Shown: positions 2,947 through 64,000, counted from the first letter of the stretch. The stretch is 64,000 nucleotides of DNA from an uncultured Candidatus Actinomarina sp. (GCA_902526825.1 CABZMN010000005.1:5032-69031); one strand, 5' to 3'. Program-made: numbers and translations. Notes: generated by a model from the letters alone, not told the origin.

Positions 2947-3938
2947 TAAAACTGCCTTAAAAACCTTAAATCATTTTCATAAAAGTTTTTTATATGATCA
3001 ATACCATATCTAATCATTGCTAATCTTTCAACCCCTACACCAAACGCGAATCCCTGGGAATCTGTGTCATACCCAACATGTTTGAAAACGTTAGGATCTA
3101 CCATTCCACATCCCAGAATTTCAAGCCATTCTCCATCTTTCCAACTAACTAAAACTTCAGCTGATGGTTCAGTGAATGGAAAAAAATGAGGAATAAACTT
3201 TGTCTTTAGGTCTTTTCCAAAAAATTCTTTAACAAAATACTCCAATGTTCCTTTTAAATCAGAAAACGTTAAGTTTTCATCTACTGCTAAACCTTCAATC
3301 TGATGAAAAATCGGTGAGTGAGTAGCATCAAGTTGGTCTGATCTGTAAACTCTCCCTGGAGCAACAATATAAACAGGCGGTTCATTGTTTTGCATATGCC
3401 TTACTTGAACAGTACTTGTTTGTGTCCTTAGTAATTTTTCAAGTTTGTTGTCTAAATATAATGTATCTGATTCATATCTTGCAGGATGCCAGTCTGGTGT
3501 ATTTAATGCATCAAAATTATGCCAGGATGTTTCTGCTTCAGGTCCAGTTGAAACTGTATATCCAATAGCTGCAAAAATATCAACTACTTCATTCATTACA
3601 TTTGTTAAAACATGATTTTTGTTACCTAAGTTTTTATACCAATCTATGGAAATATCATTATTATCATTTAATTCTCTTTGAATAAAAAATTTAGATTTGA
3701 ATTTAGTCTTCTCTTCATCTAATTTATAGGTGATATTATTTGAAAGATCTTGAAGCAATTTTCCATATTTTTTTCTAGATACTTCATTTAATGAAGATAA
3801 TGATTTTCTTTCTTCTGACAATAAGGAATTTTTACCAAGGAATTCTTTCTCAATGTCATCGAAATCTTCGATTAGAGCAACTTCTTCAAGTCTTAATAAA
3901 AAAGCGGCAAATATTTTATCGGTATTAACCTCAGGCAT
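2946..3938 (-). CDS. pheS: phenylalanine--tRNA ligase alpha subunit
   Basis: 330 aa with class II aaRS core strings RVYRSDQLDATHSPIFHQIEG, FFPFTEPSAEV and GFAFGVGVERLAMI. Confidence 0.95.
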   Translation of the reverse strand: MPEVNTDKIFAAFLLRLEEVALIEDFDDIEKEFLGKNSLLSEERKSLSSLNEVSRKKYGKLLQDLSNNITYKLDEEKTKFKSKFFIQRELNDNNDISIDWYKNLGNKNHVLTNVMNEVVDIFAAIGYTVSTGPEAETSWHNFDALNTPDWHPARYESDTLYLDNKLEKLLRTQTSTVQVRHMQNNEPPVYIVAPGRVYRSDQLDATHSPIFHQIEGLAVDENLTFSDLKGTLEYFVKEFFGKDLKTKFIPHFFPFTEPSAEVLVSWKDGEWLEILGCGMVDPNVFKHVGYDTDSQGFAFGVGVERLAMIRYGIDHIKNFYENDLRFLRQF

Positions 3939-4290
3939 TTATATTTTTTTTAGCTAAATCTACAAGTTTTTTAAATCCATCAGGATCATTGATAGCTAAA
4001 TCAGCCAATATTTTTCTATCAACTTTGACTTGAGCGTTTGTTAGACCGTTAATAAATTTTGAATATGACAAACCATGTTGTCTTGATGCTGCATTAATTC
4101 TAGAAATCCATATTTTTCTATATGTTGCTTTCTTGTCTTTACGATGAGCAAAGGCGTCATTACCTGCATGCATCACTTGTTCTTTAGCTGTCCTTAAACG
4201 TTTGCTTCTAGCTCCTGTGTAACCTTTAGCTTGTTTAAGAATCTTTTTTCTTGATTTTCTACTACTTACTGACCTTCTTACTCTTACCAT
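3931..4290 (-). CDS. rplT: 50S ribosomal protein bL20
   Basis: 119 aa. N-terminus MVRVRRSVSSRKSRKKILKQAKGYTGARS is typical of bL20. Lies in the infC-rpmI-rplT order. Confidence 0.95.
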   Translation of the reverse strand: MVRVRRSVSSRKSRKKILKQAKGYTGARSKRLRTAKEQVMHAGNDAFAHRKDKKATYRKIWISRINAASRQHGLSYSKFINGLTNAQVKVDRKILADLAINDPDGFKKLVDLAKKNINA

Positions 4291-4479
4291 TTAACTCAAC
4301 AACTTTCTTATTTTTTTTGAATCACCCTTAGAAGATTCAACATCTCTTTTTAGTCTTGACCAAGAGTTGCTACCTTTAGCCAATTTATAATGTGATCTAT
4401 GAGCACGCCTTCGCATAAATTTTCCAGTACCACTAACTCTTATTCTTTTTTTCATTCCTTTATGAGTTTTATGTTTCAT
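4291..4479 (-). CDS. rpmI: 50S ribosomal protein bL35
   Basis: 62 aa, highly basic, with MKHKTHKGMKKRIRVSGTGK. Lies between infC and rplT. Confidence 0.9.
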   Translation of the reverse strand: MKHKTHKGMKKRIRVSGTGKFMRRRAHRSHYKLAKGSNSWSRLKRDVESSKGDSKKIRKLLS

Positions 4480-5006
4480 TTTTTACCTCCGTTAGGCGCT
4501 AGTACCATTGTCAATGATCTACCATCTGGTCTAGAAGTAGACTCTACCATTGCTAAATCAACAAGTTCATCTCTAAAATTATCTAAGATTTTTTGTCCTA
4601 ATTCAGGATATTCAGCTTCCCTACCTCTAAATCTCATAGTAAATTTCACTTTATCTCCATCTTCTAAAAACTTTTTTGATTGATTTAATTTAATTTTGTA
4701 ATCGTGTGTATCAATCTTTGGTTTCAGTTGTATTTCCTTTACATTAATTTTTACTTGTTTTTTTCTTGACTCTCTTGCTTTTTGATTAAGCTCATATTTA
4801 TATTTACCATAATCCATTAATCGCGCAACAGGTGGCTTACTTTCCGGAGAGACTTCAACAAGATCAAGTTCAAGTTCTTCAGCTAATATTAGGGCTTTTT
4901 TAAGTTCTAATTCTCCAACTTGAACACCATCTGGCGCAATTACCAATAGTTTCTTCGATTTTATCTCTTCGTTCACATTTAATTCTGCTATTTGGTTCCC
5001 TTTCAT
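4476..5006 (-). CDS. infC: translation initiation factor IF-3
   Basis: 176 aa. IF-3 N-domain (NVNEEIKSKKLLVIAPDGVQVG), Lys-rich linker and C-domain (VKEIQLKPKIDTHDYKIK...VKFTMRFRGRE). ATG start with no Shine-Dalgarno sequence. Confidence 0.92.
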   Translation of the reverse strand: MKGNQIAELNVNEEIKSKKLLVIAPDGVQVGELELKKALILAEELELDLVEVSPESKPPVARLMDYGKYKYELNQKARESRKKQVKINVKEIQLKPKIDTHDYKIKLNQSKKFLEDGDKVKFTMRFRGREAEYPELGQKILDNFRDELVDLAMVESTSRPDGRSLTMVLAPNGGKK

Positions 5007-57255: not shown

Positions 57256-57389
57256 GCACAATCCTAAAAAAATTCTTTTTATTATTTGGATTTCACAAAT
57301 CATACGGAAGACTCTGGTTTTCAAAACGATTTGAAAAAATAATTTGGGGGTCATTTATTGTTTTAGCATTTTATAGATACTTTAACTAA
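57252..57389 (+). CDS. unannotated 45-codon small ORF (hydrophobic/basic peptide)
   Basis: Encodes MSTILKKFFLLFGFHKSYGRLWFSKRFEKIIWGSFIVLAFYRYFN. Its ATG overlaps the PanB-like stop (ATGA) and its TAA overlaps the GGT start (TAATG), so it fills the 133-nt gap exactly. It is below the 60-aa cutoff of the ORF track. Confidence 0.4.
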   Translation: MSTILKKFFLLFGFHKSYGRLWFSKRFEKIIWGSFIVLAFYRYFN

Positions 57390-58918
57390 TGTCTCGTATC
57401 GTAGTTTCTCCACATAATCTTTCAACTAAAACAGGAATAAAAATTCTTAAAAATGGTGGGAACGCTGTTGATGCTGCGATAAGTACCAATATTGTTCAAG
57501 GTGTTGTAGCTCCTGAGACTTGTGGAATAGGAGGTGATTTATTTTCATTAATCTGGATTGATGGTGAGAACACTCCTTATTGTTTAGATTCATCAGGATA
57601 TGCTGGATCAAATGTAGATATCTTAAAACTATCATCTCAAGAAAGTATTCCTTTAGATCATCCTATGTCAGTAACTGTGCCAGGAGCGGTTAAAGGATGG
57701 TTTGATATGCATGAACAATTTGGGAAATTAAGTATTGATGAGATTTTTAAACATGCGATTGAGATATGTGATAAAGGTTTTGAAGTATCAACTGAATTAC
57801 ATCATTCTCTATCATTACATAAAGATACTTTAATTAAACAAGAGTCAGGTGCGGAATTATTTCCTGATGGTAAAACACCAGAAATAGGTGAAATTATTAA
57901 AAGAACCTTGCTTGGTAAAACTTTAAAACGTTTAAGTATTGATGGTCCTGAATATTTTTACACAGGGTTAGTTGCTAAGAAAATTTCGGAATCTCTTAAT
58001 AATGTAGTTACTGAAAACGATTTAAGATCTTTTGAATCAAAGTGGATAAAACCATTATCAATTGATGTTTACGGTAAAACAGGCTGGGTTACTCCTCCTC
58101 ACACACAAAGTTATCTAACACTTGGAACTTTAAAAATTTATGAACTTCTAGATGATGGATCAGATAATATTGATCTTCACACACTTATTGAGTCATATAG
58201 AGCAATTGCATCTGAAAGAGATGACATTACTTATGATTATGCAGAAAATATAGATCAATTTATTGGTCTTAATCTTGGATATCTTAAAAATCTTTCAAAT
58301 CAAATACATAAAGATAAAACTTCAATATTTGCAAAACCAGAAAAACTAGGTGGTGGTACGGCATACATGTGCACTAAAGATAAAGATGGAAATGCAGTAT
58401 CACTAATACAATCTAATTATTACGGAGTTGGAAGCACAATTGGTGTAGGTGATTATGGTTTTTTTCTACACAACAGAGGAGCTGGTTTTAATTTATTACA
58501 AAATCATCCAAATTCATTAAAGCCAGGAAGAAAACCACTTCATACATTATCTCCAACCATGTGGAGTGTAGATGGAAATCTAGATATGGTCATAGGTACA
58601 AGAGGTGGAAGATATCAACCACAATTATTAAGTCATTTTATTTTAAAAATTCTTAAAGATGAAAATATAGAAAATGCAATGATGTCACCAAGATGGAATA
58701 TTGATGAATTTGGAAAAGAAACTGTATCTGAAATAAATATTGAACCTGGGTTAGATAAAAAAATTACTGATGAATTAGTTAATAAAGGGCATAAAGTTAA
58801 TCAACTTGCAGAATTACAAAATAGCTATGGACCTATATCGGCAATAGTTAAAACTAAAGATAGTTGGAAAGCTACACATGACCCAAGAGTTGATACTGCT
58901 AGTTCTATAATTGATTAG
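57389..58918 (+). CDS. ggt: gamma-glutamyltransferase family protein (no signal peptide)
   Basis: 509 aa. NAVDAAIS...GIGGD and the autoprocessing site GGG-TAYMCTKDKDGNAV (compare E. coli GGT ...TTHYSVVDKDGNAV). The N-terminus is not signal-like. Confidence 0.88.
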   Translation: MSRIVVSPHNLSTKTGIKILKNGGNAVDAAISTNIVQGVVAPETCGIGGDLFSLIWIDGENTPYCLDSSGYAGSNVDILKLSSQESIPLDHPMSVTVPGAVKGWFDMHEQFGKLSIDEIFKHAIEICDKGFEVSTELHHSLSLHKDTLIKQESGAELFPDGKTPEIGEIIKRTLLGKTLKRLSIDGPEYFYTGLVAKKISESLNNVVTENDLRSFESKWIKPLSIDVYGKTGWVTPPHTQSYLTLGTLKIYELLDDGSDNIDLHTLIESYRAIASERDDITYDYAENIDQFIGLNLGYLKNLSNQIHKDKTSIFAKPEKLGGGTAYMCTKDKDGNAVSLIQSNYYGVGSTIGVGDYGFFLHNRGAGFNLLQNHPNSLKPGRKPLHTLSPTMWSVDGNLDMVIGTRGGRYQPQLLSHFILKILKDENIENAMMSPRWNIDEFGKETVSEINIEPGLDKKITDELVNKGHKVNQLAELQNSYGPISAIVKTKDSWKATHDPRVDTASSIID

Positions 58919-58934
58919 ATAACGAAGGAGAAAA

Positions 58935-59309
58935 ATGCAATTACATAATAACAGTGGAAACATAACAGTAATTATTGATGTGTCATTCGATGACAAAGAT
59001 ATGTTTATGGATTTCATATTAAATGAACAATGCCAGTTTATTGATAGTGTGGATCCCGAAGGATTGATTAAGTTTGAATGGTTTCTTGATGAAGATTCCA
59101 ACACAGGAACTTTGGTTGAGGTTTTTGAGAAATCAGATAATTTTCAAGGGTTAGCTGGAAAAGTAATGGGCACACCGGTTAATTTGAAATTCCGCGAAAT
59201 TGCAAATATTGAAAAAATGACAGTTCTTGGTGATGTATCAAGTGAGTTGATGGAAAACCTTGCACCCATGAATCCAGTATCAAAAAGATACAAAGGTGGG
59301 CTTAGTTAG
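58935..59309 (+). CDS. hypothetical protein, possibly ABM/dimeric alpha-beta-barrel fold
   Basis: 124 aa, preceded by a good SD (gaaggag). The pattern ITVIIDVSF...GLIKFEWFLDEDSNTGTLVEVFEKSDNF loosely resembles ABM-domain proteins. Weak call. Confidence 0.4.
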   Translation: MQLHNNSGNITVIIDVSFDDKDMFMDFILNEQCQFIDSVDPEGLIKFEWFLDEDSNTGTLVEVFEKSDNFQGLAGKVMGTPVNLKFREIANIEKMTVLGDVSSELMENLAPMNPVSKRYKGGLS

Positions 59310-59565
59310 TTTTTGATTTCTCTTTAACTATTAAAAACAAAATTAAACCGGTAAAAAAAGTAGTGAGAAAATTAGTAACAATTAAAGGAACATCAGATAA
59401 TACTATTCCATAACTAAACCAAGATAGCGACCCAAGAAACAAGAATAAATAAGTAAGAGCTGACAATCCGTTTACTTCACGTGTTTTTAAGGTTTTAATT
59501 GCTTGTGGCAAAAAAGATACAACAGTAAAAAAAACAGCAAAATATCCAATGAATAAAAAATTCAT
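59302..59565 (-). CDS. SemiSWEET (PQ-loop) transporter
   Basis: 87 aa with three TM helices. The PQ motif lies in the first helix (VVSFLPQAIKTLKT). Size and topology are typical of bacterial SemiSWEETs. Confidence 0.7.
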   Translation of the reverse strand: MNFLFIGYFAVFFTVVSFLPQAIKTLKTREVNGLSALTYLFLFLGSLSWFSYGIVLSDVPLIVTNFLTTFFTGLILFLIVKEKSKTN

Positions 59566-59612
59566 TTTTTAATTTTATTAACAAAAACGAATGCAAGTAT
59601 GGAAAAAATTTT

Positions 59613-60980
59613 TTATTTATTTTTAAAATTTACTAATTTTGAAAGTGGTTCAGTTGGAAAGAATCCAGGTGGTGGTGGGTCGTCAACATTGCCTTCTCTC
59701 ATAAAATTATTAAAATCAGTATAAAAATCATCTAGAGTCATTCCTACATTTTTTTCAAATGATTCAGGAAAACTAGTCTCATAAGAATCTTCTAGTATTT
59801 CAAAAAACATTGTTTCGAATGATGTTATGTAGGCGAGATACATATTTACAATAAAACCACCCGCTACACCACAAGACCACGTAGATCTACTATCTTCAAG
59901 ACTACTCATTTCACGACATTTAACATCGCCTTTATCATATGTACCTTGCCCCATAATATGTCGTTTTACTTCGTAATATTCACCTTCCCAATCGCATTGA
60001 ACATTGCTGCAGATTTCATCTGGAAGGCTTTGATCATGACCTCTTCTTTCAGGTTGTGGGTAATTGTTATCAATAGTTAAAGATAAATCATCATACACCT
60101 CTCTCAAGAGGAGTTTTGGAAATATATTTGCAGCACCTTCTGTATGCCATGCACCTACATTTATATGTTTGTAACCATCCCAACTATCTGTATCCATGCC
60201 CATAGTGCGATCATATGTGAATTTTCTCTGATAATGATGAAAATATTCATGTGCCCAACCAAACATTAAATCGTAATATGAAAGGGTTTTATCTTTATCA
60301 TTTGCAATCCAGGGTGTATATAAAAAGGGATCAGGTTGGTTACAAAATGAATATTCATTTATTCCCGAATCTAAATTATTAAACAAGAAGAAACCACTCA
60401 AACAACTTCGATCATCGAAAAAGTCTTCGACAGTGTTTGTTGTTCTTCCATAAACACCTATTTGATTTAATATTTCGAGTGCATCTGTGTTTTCTTCATC
60501 ATTTTTTGAATATACATAATGTACATAACGATCATAAGCTCCGAGATAATCAAATAAAATATTATGAAATTCACTATGTTGTTTTATAAATTCATCAGAA
60601 ATACCATCTGAAAAAAGAAAACAAATTTCTGCATCTTCAAAACTTTTAGGCTTATCCCAACCAATCTCTTCGAAATGCTGTTTTACCGGTATATCTATAG
60701 ATTGAATATATTCTCTAATTTTGCAATTGGCGTTTCTTTTATTTTCATTAACCTGAAATGGCAAATTAGAATATTCAATTGCATTTACTTCATTTGATTC
60801 TTGAGATTGCGTAGTGGTTGTTGAAGGTGCAACAGTAGTAGTTGTTGAAGGTGCAACAGTAGTAGTTGTTGTTGTAGTGTCTTGAGATTCCGTAATAGTT
60901 GTAGTGCTTTCATCCTCTATTGTTACTAAATTACCTCCACAGAAAGAGATTAATAAAATTAATATAATTGATTTTTTCAT
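59613..60980 (-). CDS. lipoprotein, putative gluzincin metallopeptidase (unrecognised family), paralog of 62304..63503
   Basis: 455 aa. Lipobox LLISFCGGN and a Thr-rich linker with 2 x VAPSTTTT. GWAHEYFHHYQ (HExxH) followed about 30 aa later by AWHTEGAANIF. Conserved C-terminal DDPPPPGFFPTEPLSKLVNF. Confidence 0.6.
   Translation of the reverse strand: MKKSIILILLISFCGGNLVTIEDESTTTITESQDTTTTTTTVAPSTTTTVAPSTTTTQSQESNEVNAIEYSNLPFQVNENKRNANCKIREYIQSIDIPVKQHFEEIGWDKPKSFEDAEICFLFSDGISDEFIKQHSEFHNILFDYLGAYDRYVHYVYSKNDEENTDALEILNQIGVYGRTTNTVEDFFDDRSCLSGFFLFNNLDSGINEYSFCNQPDPFLYTPWIANDKDKTLSYYDLMFGWAHEYFHHYQRKFTYDRTMGMDTDSWDGYKHINVGAWHTEGAANIFPKLLLREVYDDLSLTIDNNYPQPERRGHDQSLPDEICSNVQCDWEGEYYEVKRHIMGQGTYDKGDVKCREMSSLEDSRSTWSCGVAGGFIVNMYLAYITSFETMFFEILEDSYETSFPESFEKNVGMTLDDFYTDFNNFMREGNVDDPPPPGFFPTEPLSKLVNFKNK
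60817..60864 (-). repeat. 2 x 24-bp in-frame tandem repeat
   Basis: gttgttgaaggtgcaacagtagta occurs twice in perfect tandem and encodes VAPSTTTT twice in the linker. Confidence 0.9.
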
Positions 60981-61027
60981 TAAATTTATTTTATATAAAT
61001 ATATTTAATTTATGTGATTCAAAATAT

Positions 61028-61059
61028 AAAAAAGAGTCCAGTTTCCTGAACTCTTTTTT
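61028..61059. terminator. bidirectional intrinsic terminator-like hairpin
   Basis: AAAAA-AGAGTCCAG-tttc-CTGAACTCT-TTTTT gives 8 of 9 stem pairs flanked by A5 and T5. Lies about 80 nt downstream of the 61141..62304 stop. Confidence 0.6.
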
Positions 61060-61140
61060 GAGGTAACAGGCTTATTACCTAATCAAATCTTACACTAAAT
61101 TTTTATAAATTAGGACTAAAATATCTAAAATATCTAAAAT

Positions 61141-62304
61141 TTAAGATTTAAAAAGATTTGTAATAACCATACTTACATATTCTGCGAAGATAGGTTTTGC
61201 GTCATTCCATGATATGTCGTAAATAATCTCGAAAGCTTCTTCAAACTCTTTACCATTTGCCATTATGGAATACATATGCATACCAGAATCAGCACCAGAC
61301 ATAGCATTCATAGCTTCAACAGTTAGGTAACCAATTGAATACCCAAGAACATAGTCAGGATTTTTAATACAAAGTCCAGGAATACTCTTGTTGTAATAAT
61401 CTAAAACTGCAGAAGCTGAGTAGTCATTAAATGGAGCTTGAATATGCCTAACCCTTACTTGTGCTGATCTCATGTCTAAATATTCAACATAACTATCAAC
61501 TCCAAGAGATATTCCAGCTGCATGAGCAATTCCTTCATTTAACCAACAAGGTGAAGCATCATTTGCACTCTGTTGTGGATTTCTAGCGTTACCAATCCAT
61601 TGAGATGCAACAACTGAATGTGTTACTTCATGAATATGTAGAGGACCGTATCTATATATATCTATAGAATCTCCATCACTAATTCCAAATACACCAACTC
61701 CGAAATGAGGTGGTCTTTGATAAATACCTGAATTAGCTCCGGTACAAATATCATCACGACATGGAGCTCTAGCCATACCTCCTTCAAAACCTGAAGAATT
61801 TAATTCATTAACAGCCCAATCTAGGTCGTCATAGTTATAGAAGAATCCGTAATACTTTTCTGGCAGATTAAAGTTTTGCCAAAAACTAATACCTTTTTGA
61901 ATATATTGCTCATTATCTAAAAAGTACAGAGAAGTAGAAGGACCAACATTTAATATGATTTCAAAAGAATTATTTTCAAATATATTATTTTCAGTAACTA
62001 TTCTTTGGTAATCATTCCATGCAAATTTTGGGATGTTATCAAGATTTGATATCAATTCAGTAATAGTTACATACTCACAGTCATCACATTTGTTCTTTAC
62101 AACATTGCTTGCTGACGAGCCTGCAATAGTTGTTGTTGTGTCTGCAATAGTGGTTGTTGTGTCTTCAATAGTTGTTGTTGTGTCCTGTTCGTTATTATTT
62201 GATGTGTCCTGAACTACAGACACTTGATCCTGAGAATTACCACAACCAAAAATAAAAAATGGAAAAATTAAATAACAAAGTTTTTTATATTGTTTTATAA
62301 ACAC
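61141..62304 (-). CDS. lipoprotein, putative gluzincin metallopeptidase (M1-like HExxH...WLNEG motif)
   Basis: 387 aa. Lipobox FIFGCGN and 3 x DTTTTI[EA] linker. LHIHEVTHSVV, then CWLNEGIAHAAG about 30 aa downstream, resembles the HExxH-WLNEGFA arrangement of MA(E) peptidases. Confidence 0.6.
   Translation of the reverse strand: MFIKQYKKLCYLIFPFFIFGCGNSQDQVSVVQDTSNNNEQDTTTTIEDTTTTIADTTTTIAGSSASNVVKNKCDDCEYVTITELISNLDNIPKFAWNDYQRIVTENNIFENNSFEIILNVGPSTSLYFLDNEQYIQKGISFWQNFNLPEKYYGFFYNYDDLDWAVNELNSSGFEGGMARAPCRDDICTGANSGIYQRPPHFGVGVFGISDGDSIDIYRYGPLHIHEVTHSVVASQWIGNARNPQQSANDASPCWLNEGIAHAAGISLGVDSYVEYLDMRSAQVRVRHIQAPFNDYSASAVLDYYNKSIPGLCIKNPDYVLGYSIGYLTVEAMNAMSGADSGMHMYSIMANGKEFEEAFEIIYDISWNDAKPIFAEYVSMVITNLFKS
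62122..62184 (-). repeat. 3 x 21-bp in-frame tandem repeat
   Basis: Units are tgcaatagttgttgttgtgtc / tgcaatagtggttgttgtgtc / ttcaatagttgttgttgtgtc, encoding DTTTTI[A/E]. Confidence 0.9.
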
Positions 62305-63503
62305 TAGGCATCAGCATACTTAAAAAAATTAACTACTTCAGAAATTGGTTTATCAGGAAAAAAGCCATCGGGTGGTGGATCATTTGGGTCACCCTCCCTC
62401 ATGAATGAATTAAATTTATCAAAAAATTCATCAGTTGTCATATTTGTATGTTTTTTAAAAGAACCTTCAAAACTAAGTTCATAAATATCTTTTGGAATAT
62501 CTACCCAAACAACTTCATAAGAAGTCAGATATGCGAGATATGCATTTGCTATTCCTATAAAACAAAATCCAGAAGTATCATAGCTAATATCTAATTTAGA
62601 AAACATATAATTATTACAACGGTCATCTGGATGCGATTGACCCTGAGCAGCTTTTTTTGCATTTTTATACCACTCATCCAAATTAATTCCTTCTACGTTG
62701 ACGTCATCAAATGATGATCCTTCAAAAAGAGTGATGTTTTGCCAAGATTGGTTTAACCATATATTTGGAAATACTATTGCAGCTCCTTCAATCCACCAAA
62801 CTGGTGTATCGACAGAATCTAGATTTCCCATATTTAATTCATAATGAAATGCTCTCTGATATCGATGAAAATACTCATGAGCCCATCCATGATAAATTAC
62901 TGCTCTTCTTTCTAGAAGTGGGCTACCCCATTCTCTTGTTTCATGTGGATACTCTATGAATTCATAATCCATTATGCAGAGTGAATATGGATCTGGAGGA
63001 AATACTTGCCACATACCTGAACCTGTAAGACATCCTGCACCGACTAAATAACCGTCTATAATGTTTAATTCCTGATCCCAATGTATCTCTTTTAATTTAT
63101 CAAACACTGGCTGTGAAAATTCATTTGTAGTAGTTACAACTGTCACGTATCTATTATATGCTCCAATGATGTCATTTAGCATTGAGTGAATTTCATAATA
63201 TTCATCGATAACTGTTTGTGGAACATCAGTAGCTACAACAATTTCTTGTGAGAAGTCTTTTTGAGGTTTGTCATATTCAACAGCAATGTAATGACATTTA
63301 TGTACTTCTGTTTTAGCTGAACAACTATCTGAAGATTTTGTATTTTCTGATTCATTATCCTCAGTCGCATCAGTTGGAGTAACTTCAGCAACAATTGTAT
63401 CTTTTACAATATTGTCAGATGAATCTTGCGAATCCACAATCTCATCTTGTGCTCCGCTACATGTAATTAACAAAAGAAATAAAAATAATGAAGTTTTTTT
63501 CAT
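62304..63503 (-). CDS. lipoprotein, putative gluzincin metallopeptidase (unrecognised family), paralog of 59613..60980
   Basis: 399 aa. Lipobox LLLITCSGA and an acidic linker. GWAHEYFHRYQ, WWIEGAAIVF and C-terminal NDPPPDGFFPDKPISEVVNF. Its stop shares 1 nt with the start of the next gene. Confidence 0.6.
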   Translation of the reverse strand: MKKTSLFLFLLLITCSGAQDEIVDSQDSSDNIVKDTIVAEVTPTDATEDNESENTKSSDSCSAKTEVHKCHYIAVEYDKPQKDFSQEIVVATDVPQTVIDEYYEIHSMLNDIIGAYNRYVTVVTTTNEFSQPVFDKLKEIHWDQELNIIDGYLVGAGCLTGSGMWQVFPPDPYSLCIMDYEFIEYPHETREWGSPLLERRAVIYHGWAHEYFHRYQRAFHYELNMGNLDSVDTPVWWIEGAAIVFPNIWLNQSWQNITLFEGSSFDDVNVEGINLDEWYKNAKKAAQGQSHPDDRCNNYMFSKLDISYDTSGFCFIGIANAYLAYLTSYEVVWVDIPKDIYELSFEGSFKKHTNMTTDEFFDKFNSFMREGDPNDPPPDGFFPDKPISEVVNFFKYADA

Positions 63504-63509
63504 ATTGAG

Positions 63510-63929
63510 TTAATTATACTCACCATTTTTAAATCTCTCGACAGGTGTAATATCTAGATCTCTTTGAAATTGAACATAACTTACAATCTCTGGATTTTCA
63601 AATTCATATACAGTGTTATCTTTAGTAAATAAATTTGTCATCAGTCTTAAAAATCCATTTAATTCTGATGCGGTTATATCTCCATCTGAAATTTTCTTGT
63701 AATATGCATTAATTACTTTTGCAGCCAAATTATGCATTCTTGCTATAAGTGAATTGTGATAAATATTTCTTATCTCATTGATAACGCCTTTACATTGGGG
63801 AGTTTGAAGTCTTCTATAAACAGTAGATCTATTTAGCCCTAATGCTTTGGCAATTTGTGGATTGGATAAGCCTTCTACGTGTAGTTCAGCTATTCTAAAG
63901 TCTTTATTATCTGGTTTAATCTCTTCCAT
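63510..63929 (-). CDS. small helix-turn-helix protein (resolvase/terminase-small-subunit-like HTH)
   Basis: 139 aa. N-terminal FRIAELHVEGLSNPQIAKALGLNRSTVYRRL is a clear HTH of the HTH_7/HTH_23/LuxR-like kind. The remainder is helical. Ends 6 nt before the first peptidase gene. Confidence 0.55.
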   Translation of the reverse strand: MEEIKPDNKDFRIAELHVEGLSNPQIAKALGLNRSTVYRRLQTPQCKGVINEIRNIYHNSLIARMHNLAAKVINAYYKKISDGDITASELNGFLRLMTNLFTKDNTVYEFENPEIVSYVQFQRDLDITPVERFKNGEYN

Positions 63930-64000
63930 ATAGATAATTTTAACAGTTGAAATCGTCGTTGGTTTTAGTGGTATGTATGGGGTGAAAGATAAGAGGGTTC

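What the first reader, a model, noticed from the sequence alone, without database searches (positions are those of the whole stretch)
59613..63503. Three tandem lipoprotein HExxH...E (gluzincin) peptidases of unrecognised family, two sharing a conserved Pro-rich C-terminal tail
All three ORFs have a signal peptide plus lipobox Cys and a Thr-rich or acidic linker. Each carries an HExxH motif followed about 30 residues later by a Glu-containing motif:
- GWAHEYFHHYQ ... AWHTEGAA (59613..60980)
- GWAHEYFHRYQ ... WWIEGAA (62304..63503)
- HIHEVTHSV ... CWLNEGIAHA (61141..62304), which is M1-like (WLNEGFA)

The outer two are clear paralogs. They share GAY[DN]RYV, AYLAY[IL]TS[FY]E, FN[NS]FMREG and a near-identical C-terminal D-P-P-P-x-G-F-F-P-x-x-P-x-S-x-x-V-N-F, which looks like a sorting or anchoring tag. 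They also carry multiple Cys, consistent with extracytoplasmic disulfides. I do not recognise the family. Three secreted peptidases in a row is conspicuous in such a small, tightly packed genome, and the block sits at the end of the accessory half of the window. It may be a nutrient-scavenging or cell-surface-remodelling module and possibly a flexible island.
Basis: partly seen in the sequence, partly recalled or inferred. Interest (0 to 1): 0.65.

Follow-up and report, generated by a model that had tools for sequence, protein, structure and literature searches.

The report
Surface zinc-peptidase lipoprotein cassettes in Actinomarina
The three genes are real, membrane-tethered, probably zinc-dependent peptidases of undescribed families remotely related to M61/M9 enzymes; they belong to a ~14-copy expansion in a tiny marine actinobacterium, and two of them are accessory cassettes recently swapped between species.

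Summary
There are three minus-strand ORFs: A 59613-60980, B 61141-62304 and C 62304-63503. Each has a signal peptide with a lipobox Cys, a Thr-rich or acidic linker, and an HExxH motif followed by a Glu 26-33 residues later.

The organism is a Candidatus Actinomarina single-cell genome. A and C are paralogs (29% identity, E 2e-51) of a small family with no Pfam or NCBIfam model. H-E-x-x-H and the distal E-G are invariant in 44 relatives down to 16% identity. The family links to the Pfam M61 catalytic core through bridging proteins (hhalign 99.2%). It also links to a second local family (98.6%), which in turn links to B (97.5%).

A confident AlphaFold model of C (pTM 0.80) has no significant Foldseek neighbour, so the zincin fold rests on sequence and topology only.

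The conserved Pro-rich tail is modelled as ordered and lies internally in multidomain relatives. It is a structural element, not a sorting tag.

The genome holds about 14 such lipoproteins, including another array of six. B is the resident gene at this locus in about 15 of 65 species. A and C are insertions found only here and in one other species. In that species the block is 97-100% identical against a 70-80% background.

Peptidase activity and physiological role are inferred.

The parts
62304..63503 (-). Gene C: 399-aa lipoprotein of family 1. Signal peptide with Cys15, an acidic linker to about residue 60, then a catalytic domain with H209-E-Y-F-H213 and E239.
   Evidence: The AF2 model has pTM 0.80. 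Its 5' end is colinear with the 5' end of B orthologs in other species.
61141..62304 (-). Gene B: 387-aa lipoprotein with a GTG start. Cys21, a Thr-rich linker, HEVTH at 225-229 and E257 in the motif CWLNEGIAHA. It is the resident gene of this locus.
   Evidence: Orthologs of 72-88% identity lie at HTH-B-...-GGT in other species.
59613..60980 (-). Gene A: 455-aa lipoprotein of family 1. Cys14, a (VAPSTTTT)n linker, HEYFH at 244-248 and E281.
   Evidence: It is a separate transcription unit downstream of a terminator-like hairpin.
62865..62879 (-). HEYFH zinc-binding and catalytic motif of C. The distal Glu239 codon is at 62787-62789.
   Evidence: Invariant in alignments A1 and A5. It lies in predicted helix 196-220, and E239 lies at the start of helix 235-256.
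60237..60251 (-). HEYFH motif of A. The distal Glu281 codon is at 60138-60140.
61618..61632 (-). HEVTH motif of B. The distal Glu257 codon is at 61534-61536.
   Evidence: Invariant in 19 B orthologs. It aligns with the family-2 motifs HEMFH and W.EG in hhalign.
62325..62390 (-). C-terminal Pro-rich strap of C (DPNDPPPDGFFPDKPISEVVNF, residues 372-393).
   Evidence: P378, G380 and F393 are invariant. pLDDT is 95-98. The strap is internal in multidomain relatives.
59625..59684 (-). C-terminal Pro-rich strap of A (DDPPPPGFFPTEPLSKLVNF, residues 433-452).
61028..61059 (-). Intrinsic-terminator-like hairpin (14-bp stem plus a T run) between B and A.
63510..63929 (-). 139-aa HTH protein whose stop lies 6 nt upstream of C. 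It is the conserved upstream neighbour of B in other species.
   Evidence: HTH_23, E 5.5e-8. (84-94% identical orthologs directly upstream of B).
58406..64000 (.). Block that is 97-100% nucleotide-identical to a different Actinomarina species (G025 = SAG AG-333-G05). It continues past the window end to at least 64402. The left flank is 69-81% identical, and the breakpoint lies in the 3' end of the GGT gene.

Best explanation
A, B and C are extracytoplasmic zinc metallopeptidases (gluzincin type: HExxH plus a distal Glu) of a marine monoderm actinobacterium, Candidatus Actinomarina.

How each protein is probably built (inferred)
- It is exported and lipid-anchored through its lipobox Cys to the outer face of the cell membrane.
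- A 40-70-residue Thr-rich or acidic linker holds it away from the membrane.
- The two His residues and the distal Glu bind one zinc ion, and the motif Glu acts as the general base.

Family relationships
- A and C belong to a small, undescribed family. Its catalytic half is homologous to the Pfam M61 core and, more weakly, to M9 and DUF5700.
- B belongs to a sister family, linked to A and C through a third local family.
- The conserved Pro-rich C-terminus is an ordered structural strap that ends the domain. It is not a sorting signal.

Genomic behaviour
- The genes are accessory cassettes.
- B is the resident gene at an HTH-B-(variable cargo)-GGT hotspot.
- C was recombined into B's own leader sequence, and A was added downstream.
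- The whole block of at least 6 kb was recently exchanged between two species.
- The shared signal-peptide and Thr-linker DNA probably serves as the recombination handle.

Most likely role (inferred): degrading dissolved or particle-bound peptides and proteins at the cell surface to feed amino-acid and peptide uptake. The different paralogs would give different specificities.
For: Shown
- The ORFs, leaders and motifs are present.
- H209, E210, H213, E239 and G240 are invariant in 44 relatives down to 16% identity.
- 14 of 44 relatives hit Pfam Peptidase_M61, 9 hit M9 and 7 hit DUF5700.
- Bridging proteins pass the M61 gathering score: P0331 at 39.6 bits and P0311 at 32.2 bits, against a cut-off of 22.
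- hhalign of family 1 against these bridges gives 99.2%, E 7.8e-20.
- hhalign of family 1 against family 2 gives 98.6%. Family 2 against B gives 97.5% with the motifs aligned.
- The AF2 model of C has pTM 0.80. HExxH and the distal Glu lie on consecutive long helices after a beta/alpha sheet, and the tail has pLDDT about 95.
- Lgt is present. LspA is present in 11 of 13 congeners.
- The genome holds about 14 lipoprotein HExxH ORFs, six of them in tandem on contig C14.
- The distribution is patchy: strong family-1 matches in about 11 of 65 species genomes, and B in 15 of 65.
- None of 400 other Actinomycetota genomes has a family-1 match.
- The locus shows a variable slot.
- Identity to G025 steps from 69-81% to 97-100%.
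- C's 5' end is colinear with the 5' end of B orthologs.
- Leader and linker DNA is 93% identical between paralogs of different families.
Against: - No enzymatic evidence exists.
- Foldseek found no significant neighbour for the confident C model. The best PDB hit has E 0.65 and the best viral hit E 0.42. Only weak hits to HExxH proteins (YbeY, archaemetzincin, DPP III) appeared.
- The window proteins themselves do not reach any Pfam peptidase threshold.
- The model of B failed (pLDDT 31), and B's direct profile link to the M61-positive bridge is not significant.
- LspA was not found in G000 or G025. No PMT was found, so linker glycosylation is unsupported.
- The nutrient-scavenging role rests only on localisation, paralog diversity and the GGT and PQ-loop neighbours.
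Confidence: 0.65

Rival explanations
1. The proteins are surface-anchored zincins that act on the cell's own envelope. They could trim or remodel peptidoglycan stem peptides, or mature or shed other surface proteins, rather than acquire nutrients.
For: They have a lipoprotein tether and a stalk in a monoderm cell. Neighbouring flexible regions encode surface proteins, such as the beta-propeller-repeat protein at the contig end. One distant relative carries PG_binding_1.
Against: Known peptidoglycan peptidases belong to other families (M15, M23, M14, NlpC/P60; general knowledge). No wall-binding domain is present in A, B or C. About 14 diverged copies and species-variable presence fit substrate diversification better than a housekeeping wall function.
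Confidence: 0.15
2. The proteins are mainly variable surface antigens or decoys under phage or grazer pressure. Their value would lie in surface diversity, and catalysis would be secondary or lost.
For: They sit in flexible regions and are exchanged between species. Contigs break at these genes. The Thr-rich stalks are repetitive and homogenised. The literature describes Actinomarina islands as dominated by envelope-related genes (PMC7771536; bioRxiv 10.64898/2026.04.03.716425).
Against: Strict invariance of the metal-ligand and catalytic residues across relatives down to 16% identity argues for retained catalysis. The catalytic domains of orthologs are well conserved: B is 72-88% identical across species.
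Confidence: 0.1
3. The HTH gene and the adjacent HExxH gene form an intracellular regulator-protease pair of the ImmR/ImmA type on a mobile element.
For: An HTH gene lies 6 nt upstream and is conserved next to B. The HTH resembles HTH domains of IS elements, resolvases and small terminases.
Against: All three HExxH proteins carry signal peptides with a lipobox, so they are exported. None matches an M78/ImmA model or any PADLOC model. No integrase or other mobile-element gene was seen in the block.
Confidence: 0.03
4. The near-identity of the block between G000 and G025 is an artefact, such as cross-contamination or a chimeric assembly of single-cell libraries, rather than gene transfer.
For: Both are amplified single-cell assemblies. 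The block sits at contig ends in both.
Against: Both contigs join the block to their own divergent flank at the same position, inside GGT. An 88-91% transition zone lies between the two identity levels. Two further zincin loci show the same pattern at lower identity, 92-97% against a 77% background. This is not what contamination would give.
Confidence: 0.07

Closest known systems
MEROPS family M61 (glycyl aminopeptidase; Pfam PF05299 Peptidase_M61), clan MA gluzincins
   Same: The family has HExxH plus a distal Glu on the following helix. Distant family-1 relatives pass the PF05299 gathering score and align with family 1 at 99.2% hhalign probability, from the HExxH motif to the C-terminal helical domain.
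   Different: A, B and C give no PF05299 hit themselves. No M61 N-terminal domain or PDZ domain was detected. These proteins instead have a lipoprotein leader, a Thr-rich stalk, a different N-terminal beta/alpha subdomain with a conserved Cys pair, and a Pro-rich C-terminal strap. No exopeptidase motif is recognisable, so aminopeptidase specificity cannot be assumed.
MEROPS family M9 (microbial collagenases; Pfam PF01752)
   Same: Both share the motif style HE[YF]xHxxQ followed by a W/F..EG.AE-type Glu helix. Sub-threshold Pfam hits occur in 9 of 44 relatives (best E 4.2e-5) and in the genome's own family-2 member on contig C12 (E 3.9e-4).
   Different: All scores fall below the gathering score of 26 bits. 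No activator domain or collagen-binding/PKD domains are present. Foldseek did not retrieve collagenase structures.
Pfam Peptidase_MA_2 (PF13485) and M1-type 'WLNEG' gluzincins
   Same: B has HEVTH followed by CWLNEGIAHA and a weak PF13485 match over residues 224-304 (E 3e-4).
   Different: The score of 21 bits is below the cut-off of 32.4. There is no M1 hit. B's structure prediction failed.
Pfam DUF5700 (putative zinc-dependent peptidase)
   Same: Weak hits occur in 7 of 44 family-1 relatives (best E 0.0011).
   Different: The hits are below threshold, and DUF5700 is itself uncharacterised.

Membership tests
Clan MA(E) gluzincin metallopeptidases | An HExxH motif whose two His residues bind zinc and whose Glu is catalytic. 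| tested here: met
   The motif is present in A, B and C. H, E and H are invariant in 44 diverse family-1 relatives and in 19 B orthologs.
Clan MA(E) gluzincin metallopeptidases | A third zinc ligand that is a Glu on the next helix, about 18-35 residues after the motif. | tested here: met
   E239 (C), E281 (A) and E257 (B) lie 26, 33 and 28 residues after the second His. E239 and G240 are invariant. In the model, E239 begins helix 235-256, directly after the motif helix 196-220.
Clan MA(E) gluzincin metallopeptidases | The zincin fold: a mixed beta-sheet N-subdomain, the active-site helix, and a helical C-subdomain. | tested here: inconclusive
   The order of secondary-structure elements fits. 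Foldseek gave no significant PDB or BFVD match, and model coordinates could not be inspected.
Clan MA(E) gluzincin metallopeptidases | Zinc-dependent peptide-bond hydrolysis. | not testable with these tools
   This needs biochemistry.
MEROPS M61 / Pfam PF05299 | The protein scores above the PF05299 gathering threshold of 22 bits. | tested here: not met
   A, B and C give no PF05299 hit at E<=1. Only distant relatives pass.
MEROPS M61 / Pfam PF05299 | Homology of the catalytic core to M61 members. | tested here: met
   hhalign of A1 against the M61-positive bridge alignment A6 gives 99.2%, E 7.8e-20. This is shown for A and C only. For B the comparison is not significant.
MEROPS M9 / Pfam PF01752 | The protein scores above the PF01752 gathering threshold of 26 bits. 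| tested here: not met
   The best score among relatives is 23.4 bits. The window proteins give no hit.
Bacterial lipoproteins (Lgt/LspA pathway) | An N-terminal signal peptide ending in a lipobox with an invariant Cys. | tested here: met
   The leaders are A LISFC|GG, B IFGC|GN and C LITC|SG. Homologs have canonical lipoboxes at the aligned Cys. No SignalP or LipoP program was available.
Bacterial lipoproteins (Lgt/LspA pathway) | The genome encodes Lgt and LspA. | tested here: inconclusive
   Lgt was found at 88 bits. LspA was not found in G000, which is 74.6% complete, nor in G025. It is present in 11 of 13 congeners.
C-terminal sorting signals (LPXTG, PEP-CTERM, GlyGly-CTERM types) | A short motif at the extreme C-terminus followed by a hydrophobic helix and basic residues. 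| tested here: not met
   Only 6-21 polar residues follow the tail, with no hydrophobic stretch. The tail is internal in multidomain relatives such as P0064, which has TPR repeats after it. It is modelled as ordered with pLDDT about 95.

The most novel reading that the evidence does not exclude
Actinomarina carries an undescribed, modular surface-protease system. Diverged gluzincin catalytic cassettes would make up at least three new peptidase families, whose overall fold has no solved structural neighbour. These cassettes would be shuffled between paralogs, loci and species by recombination in a shared module of signal peptide plus Thr-linker DNA. This would give one of the smallest free-living cells a rapidly exchangeable extracellular proteolytic repertoire tuned to the local pool of dissolved protein.
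Probability: 0.3. Interest if true: 0.65.

Novelty: new variant of a known kind. Interest (0 to 1): 0.45.

Why it matters
Actinomarina is among the most abundant and smallest photoheterotrophs of the surface ocean, and it has never been cultured. How it obtains organic nitrogen and carbon is inferred from genomes alone.

This roughly 1-Mb genome devotes about 14 genes to tethered, diverged zinc peptidases of unannotated families. These genes lie in flexible regions and move between species. That points to cell-surface proteolysis as a variable ecological trait in this lineage.

The two main comparative-genomics papers on the group do not mention peptidases or lipoproteins in their main text.

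The families could be registered as new clan-MA families. The shared leader-linker module suggests a simple recombination mechanism for building lipoprotein gene arrays.

Tried and rejected
- Direct Pfam, NCBIfam and PADLOC scans of A, B and C gave no peptidase family above threshold.
- PDB sequence searches found nothing, with either single proteins or the family profile.
- Foldseek of the confident C model against PDB and BFVD found nothing significant.
- AlphaFold of B with 19 close orthologs failed (pLDDT 31), so it was not used for fold search. The alignment was too shallow.
- The direct profile comparison of A/C with B matched only the signal peptide. B against the M61-positive bridge was not significant.
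- Synteny comparison with three more distant species (G002, G018, G019) was uninformative, because only GGT is shared there.
- The PMT search, meant to support linker O-glycosylation, found nothing, so that idea was dropped.
Expression and read recruitment were therefore not tested.
- The sorting-tag idea and the ImmR/ImmA-like pairing were considered and rejected, as explained under the rival explanations and the membership test.


Full report
**Observation.** B starts with a GTG that overlaps C's stop codon by one base.

Each ORF begins with a short basic n-region, a hydrophobic core and a Cys:
- A: MKKSIILILLISFC|GG
- B: ...YLIFPFFIFGC|GN
- C: MKKTSLFLFLLLITC|SG

A Thr-rich linker (A, B) or an acidic linker (C) follows. 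Each protein has HExxH and a Glu 26-33 residues later: A H244/H248/E281, B H225/H229/E257 and C H209/H213/E239.

A and C are clear paralogs (BLASTP 29% identity, E 2e-51). B has no direct BLAST similarity to them.

**Organism.** Named homologs come from Candidatus Actinomarina and Actinomarinales. The window is C5:5032-69031 of an 879-kb, 24-contig assembly that is 74.6% complete. GC content is about 30%. This is a monoderm actinobacterium, so a lipoprotein would sit on the outer face of the cell membrane. Lgt is present. LspA was not found in this assembly or in G025, but it is present in 11 of 13 congeners.

**Are they zincins?**

What gave no answer:
- A and C hit no Pfam or NCBIfam peptidase model.
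- B gives only a sub-threshold Peptidase_MA_2 hit (E 3e-4).
- No PDB sequence matches, even with the family profile.

Evidence from conservation:
- In 19 family members, HEYFH, Q216, W236, E239, G240, A242, P378, G380 and F393 are invariant.
- A profile search of 1.84 billion representative proteins found only 257 relatives at E<=1e-3, so the family is small.
- In 44 of these, down to 16% identity, the invariant columns are C158, H209, E210, H213, E239 and G240. These include exactly the residues expected to bind zinc and to act as general base.

Evidence from bridging proteins:
- Of those 44, 14 hit Pfam Peptidase_M61, 9 hit Peptidase_M9 and 7 hit DUF5700.
- Several pass the M61 gathering score: P0331 at 39.6 bits, P0311 at 32.2 and P0293 at 29.7, against a cut-off of 22.
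- A profile-profile comparison of the A/C family with these M61-positive proteins gives 99.2% probability (E 7.8e-20). The alignment runs from the HExxH helix to the end of the helical C-terminal domain.

Homology of A and C to a recognised gluzincin core is therefore well supported. Membership of M61 proper is not.

**Structure.** AlphaFold2 modelled C with confidence (mean pLDDT 80, pTM 0.80; 227 residues at or above 90).
- The first 59 residues (leader and linker) are disordered.
- Next comes a beta-alpha-beta-alpha-beta-beta-beta unit.
- A long helix at 196-220 carries HEYFH.
- A second long helix at 235-256 starts at E239.
- A helical C-terminal domain follows.

This order is what a gluzincin should show. 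However, Foldseek found no significant neighbour in PDB (best E 0.65) or BFVD. Only weak matches to other HExxH proteins (YbeY, archaemetzincin, DPP III) appeared. Coordinates could not be inspected, so the fold test is inconclusive. The second prediction, for B, failed (pLDDT 31) because its available homologs are all 72-88% identical.

**The tail.** The element PP.G[FW].P...[IL]....[VA][DN]F occurs in nearly every complete family-1 member, in variant forms such as PPAGWTPPEGPISAYADF and APEGWNIPD...VDF. Three points argue against a sorting tag:
- It is modelled as ordered, with pLDDT 95-98.
- Only 6-21 polar residues follow it, with no hydrophobic anchor.
- It is internal in relatives that carry further C-terminal domains, for example P0064 with TPR repeats.

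It is best read as the structural end of the domain.

**A larger expansion.** The same genome encodes five family-1 members: two on C5, two on C14 and one on C17. It also encodes a second family (HE[MT]FHIFQ ... WW.EG.AV ... FGKDYRTY) with five members, plus four more lipoprotein HExxH ORFs. B is one of these four; the other three are on C3, C6 and C7. That makes about 14 in 0.88 Mb.

Contig C14 (7,012 bp) consists entirely of six such genes in tandem on one strand. Family 1 and family 2 are homologous (hhalign 98.6%, E 9e-16). Family 2 and B are homologous over their full length with the motifs aligned (97.5%, E 8.6e-12). A family-2 member gives a weak M9 hit (E 3.9e-4). The three window genes therefore belong to one diverged superfamily.

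**Distribution.**
- Among 65 species-level Actinomarinales genomes, strong family-1 matches occur in about 11, with 4-5 copies only in G000, G025 and G049.
- Family 2 occurs in 39 of 65 genomes and in 11 of 12 high-quality genomes. It usually has one copy, but 6-8 matches (a few of them partial) in the same three species.
- B occurs once in each of 15 of the 65 genomes.
- None of 400 other Actinomycetota genomes has a family-1 match at E<=1e-8.

**The locus.** In other species the arrangement is HTH - B - variable cargo - 124-aa gene - GGT. The cargo includes a luciferase-like monooxygenase, a multi-pass membrane protein and a PQ-loop protein. Only G000 and G025 (SAG AG-333-G05) have C between HTH and B, and A after B.

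C's first ~35 codons (signal peptide and the start of the linker), together with the upstream HTH end, are colinear with the 5' end of B orthologs in other species. B in G000 carries a different leader. So C was recombined into the resident B leader.

A 14-bp-stem terminator-like hairpin separates B from A. This suggests two transcription units: HTH-C-B, and A with or without the PQ-loop gene.

**Recent exchange.** Between G000 and G025, nucleotide identity is 69-81% left of window ~58,100. It is 88-91% across 58,400-59,000, inside the 3' end of GGT. It is then 97-100% from there to at least 64,402.

Two other zincin loci show the same contrast: C14 at 94.5-97% identity, and C12 at 92-94% next to a 77% background.

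Leader-plus-linker DNA is 93% identical over 160 nt between a family-1 gene and a family-2 gene on C14, although their catalytic domains share almost no similarity. This fits recombination or gene conversion through a shared leader-linker module.

**Mechanism and role.**
- Shown: the export signals, the conserved metal-site residues, the homology to an M61-type core, the accessory and exchanged status, and the expansion.
- Inferred: zinc binding, peptidase activity, surface display on a stalk, and a role in harvesting extracellular peptides. The last fits the diversity of paralogs and the GGT and PQ-loop neighbours.
- Rivals considered: envelope remodelling, surface variation under phage pressure, an ImmA-like pair, and an assembly artefact. 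All are judged less likely.

**Literature.** The two main Actinomarinales genome papers describe flexible islands and a hypervariable region. Their main text contains no occurrence of peptidase, protease, lipoprotein or metallo- (PMC7771536; bioRxiv 10.64898/2026.04.03.716425). Earlier notes of this scan on the same genome did not cover these families.

**Verdict.** These are new families within a known clan, with an interesting cassette-like population genetics. Interest is moderate.

Noticed in passing
G000 contig C14 (7,012 bp; outside the window), loci L007/L008: The whole contig is six tandem minus-strand lipoprotein HExxH genes, four of family 2 and two of family 1. The contig ends fall inside these genes, so the paralogs break the assembly. 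In G049 the equivalent array is followed directly by the sequence of G000 contig C13.
   Followed up: partly
G000 C14 genes 1164-2537 and 3727-4929; window 60800-60980: Signal-peptide plus Thr-linker DNA is 93% identical over 160 nt between genes whose catalytic domains belong to different families. A's (VAPSTTTT)n linker DNA is 89-92% identical to linkers on C14. This suggests gene conversion or a recombination handle.
   Followed up: partly
window 58406-59005 (3' end of the GGT gene 57389-58918): A recombination breakpoint lies here. Identity to G025 rises from about 70% to 88-91% and then to 97-100%, so the GGT gene is itself a mosaic.
   Followed up: yes
window 63510-63929: The 139-aa HTH protein (HTH_23/HTH_38-like) is the conserved upstream neighbour of B in several species (84-94% identity), with a 3-6 nt spacer. 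It may regulate the downstream lipoprotein gene, or it may just be co-transcribed with it.
   Followed up: partly
beyond the window end: C5 69490-69826 (window-equivalent 64459-64795) and L011 1-1340: The contig ends in a repeat of about 183 bp. It encodes a beta-propeller-like repeat protein (GIAVDSSGNSYITGYF..TVDFGGG..DIFVLKLNSSG.FQW). In G025 a small TM2-domain-like membrane protein lies beside it. Both lie next to the exchanged block.
   Followed up: no
whole genome G000 and G025: No LspA (PF01252) match was found in the two genomes with the largest lipoprotein-zincin expansion. 11 of 13 congeners have one. G025 is about 90% complete. The cause could be an assembly gap or a divergent signal peptidase II, and it is not resolved.
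   Followed up: partly
L013 91-1257 (G002), L012 1-840 (G019), L014 3-503 (G018): In more distant Actinomarina species another HExxH ORF lies a few kb upstream of GGT. In G002 it has an N-terminal hydrophobic leader. Its relation to the superfamily was not tested.
   Followed up: no
window 59302-59565 and 58935-59309: An 87-aa PQ-loop/SWEET-like half-transporter (PF04193, E 5e-13) and a 124-aa protein with no Pfam hit lie between A and GGT. The 124-aa protein is 90-96% conserved across species.
   Followed up: no
L001-L003 (JGI sample 3300066022): The same family-1 protein (P0026) sits on three contigs of one metagenome. The downstream genes are identical, but one contig has different upstream genes and an insertion further downstream. 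This is a further sign of a variable neighbourhood.
   Followed up: no
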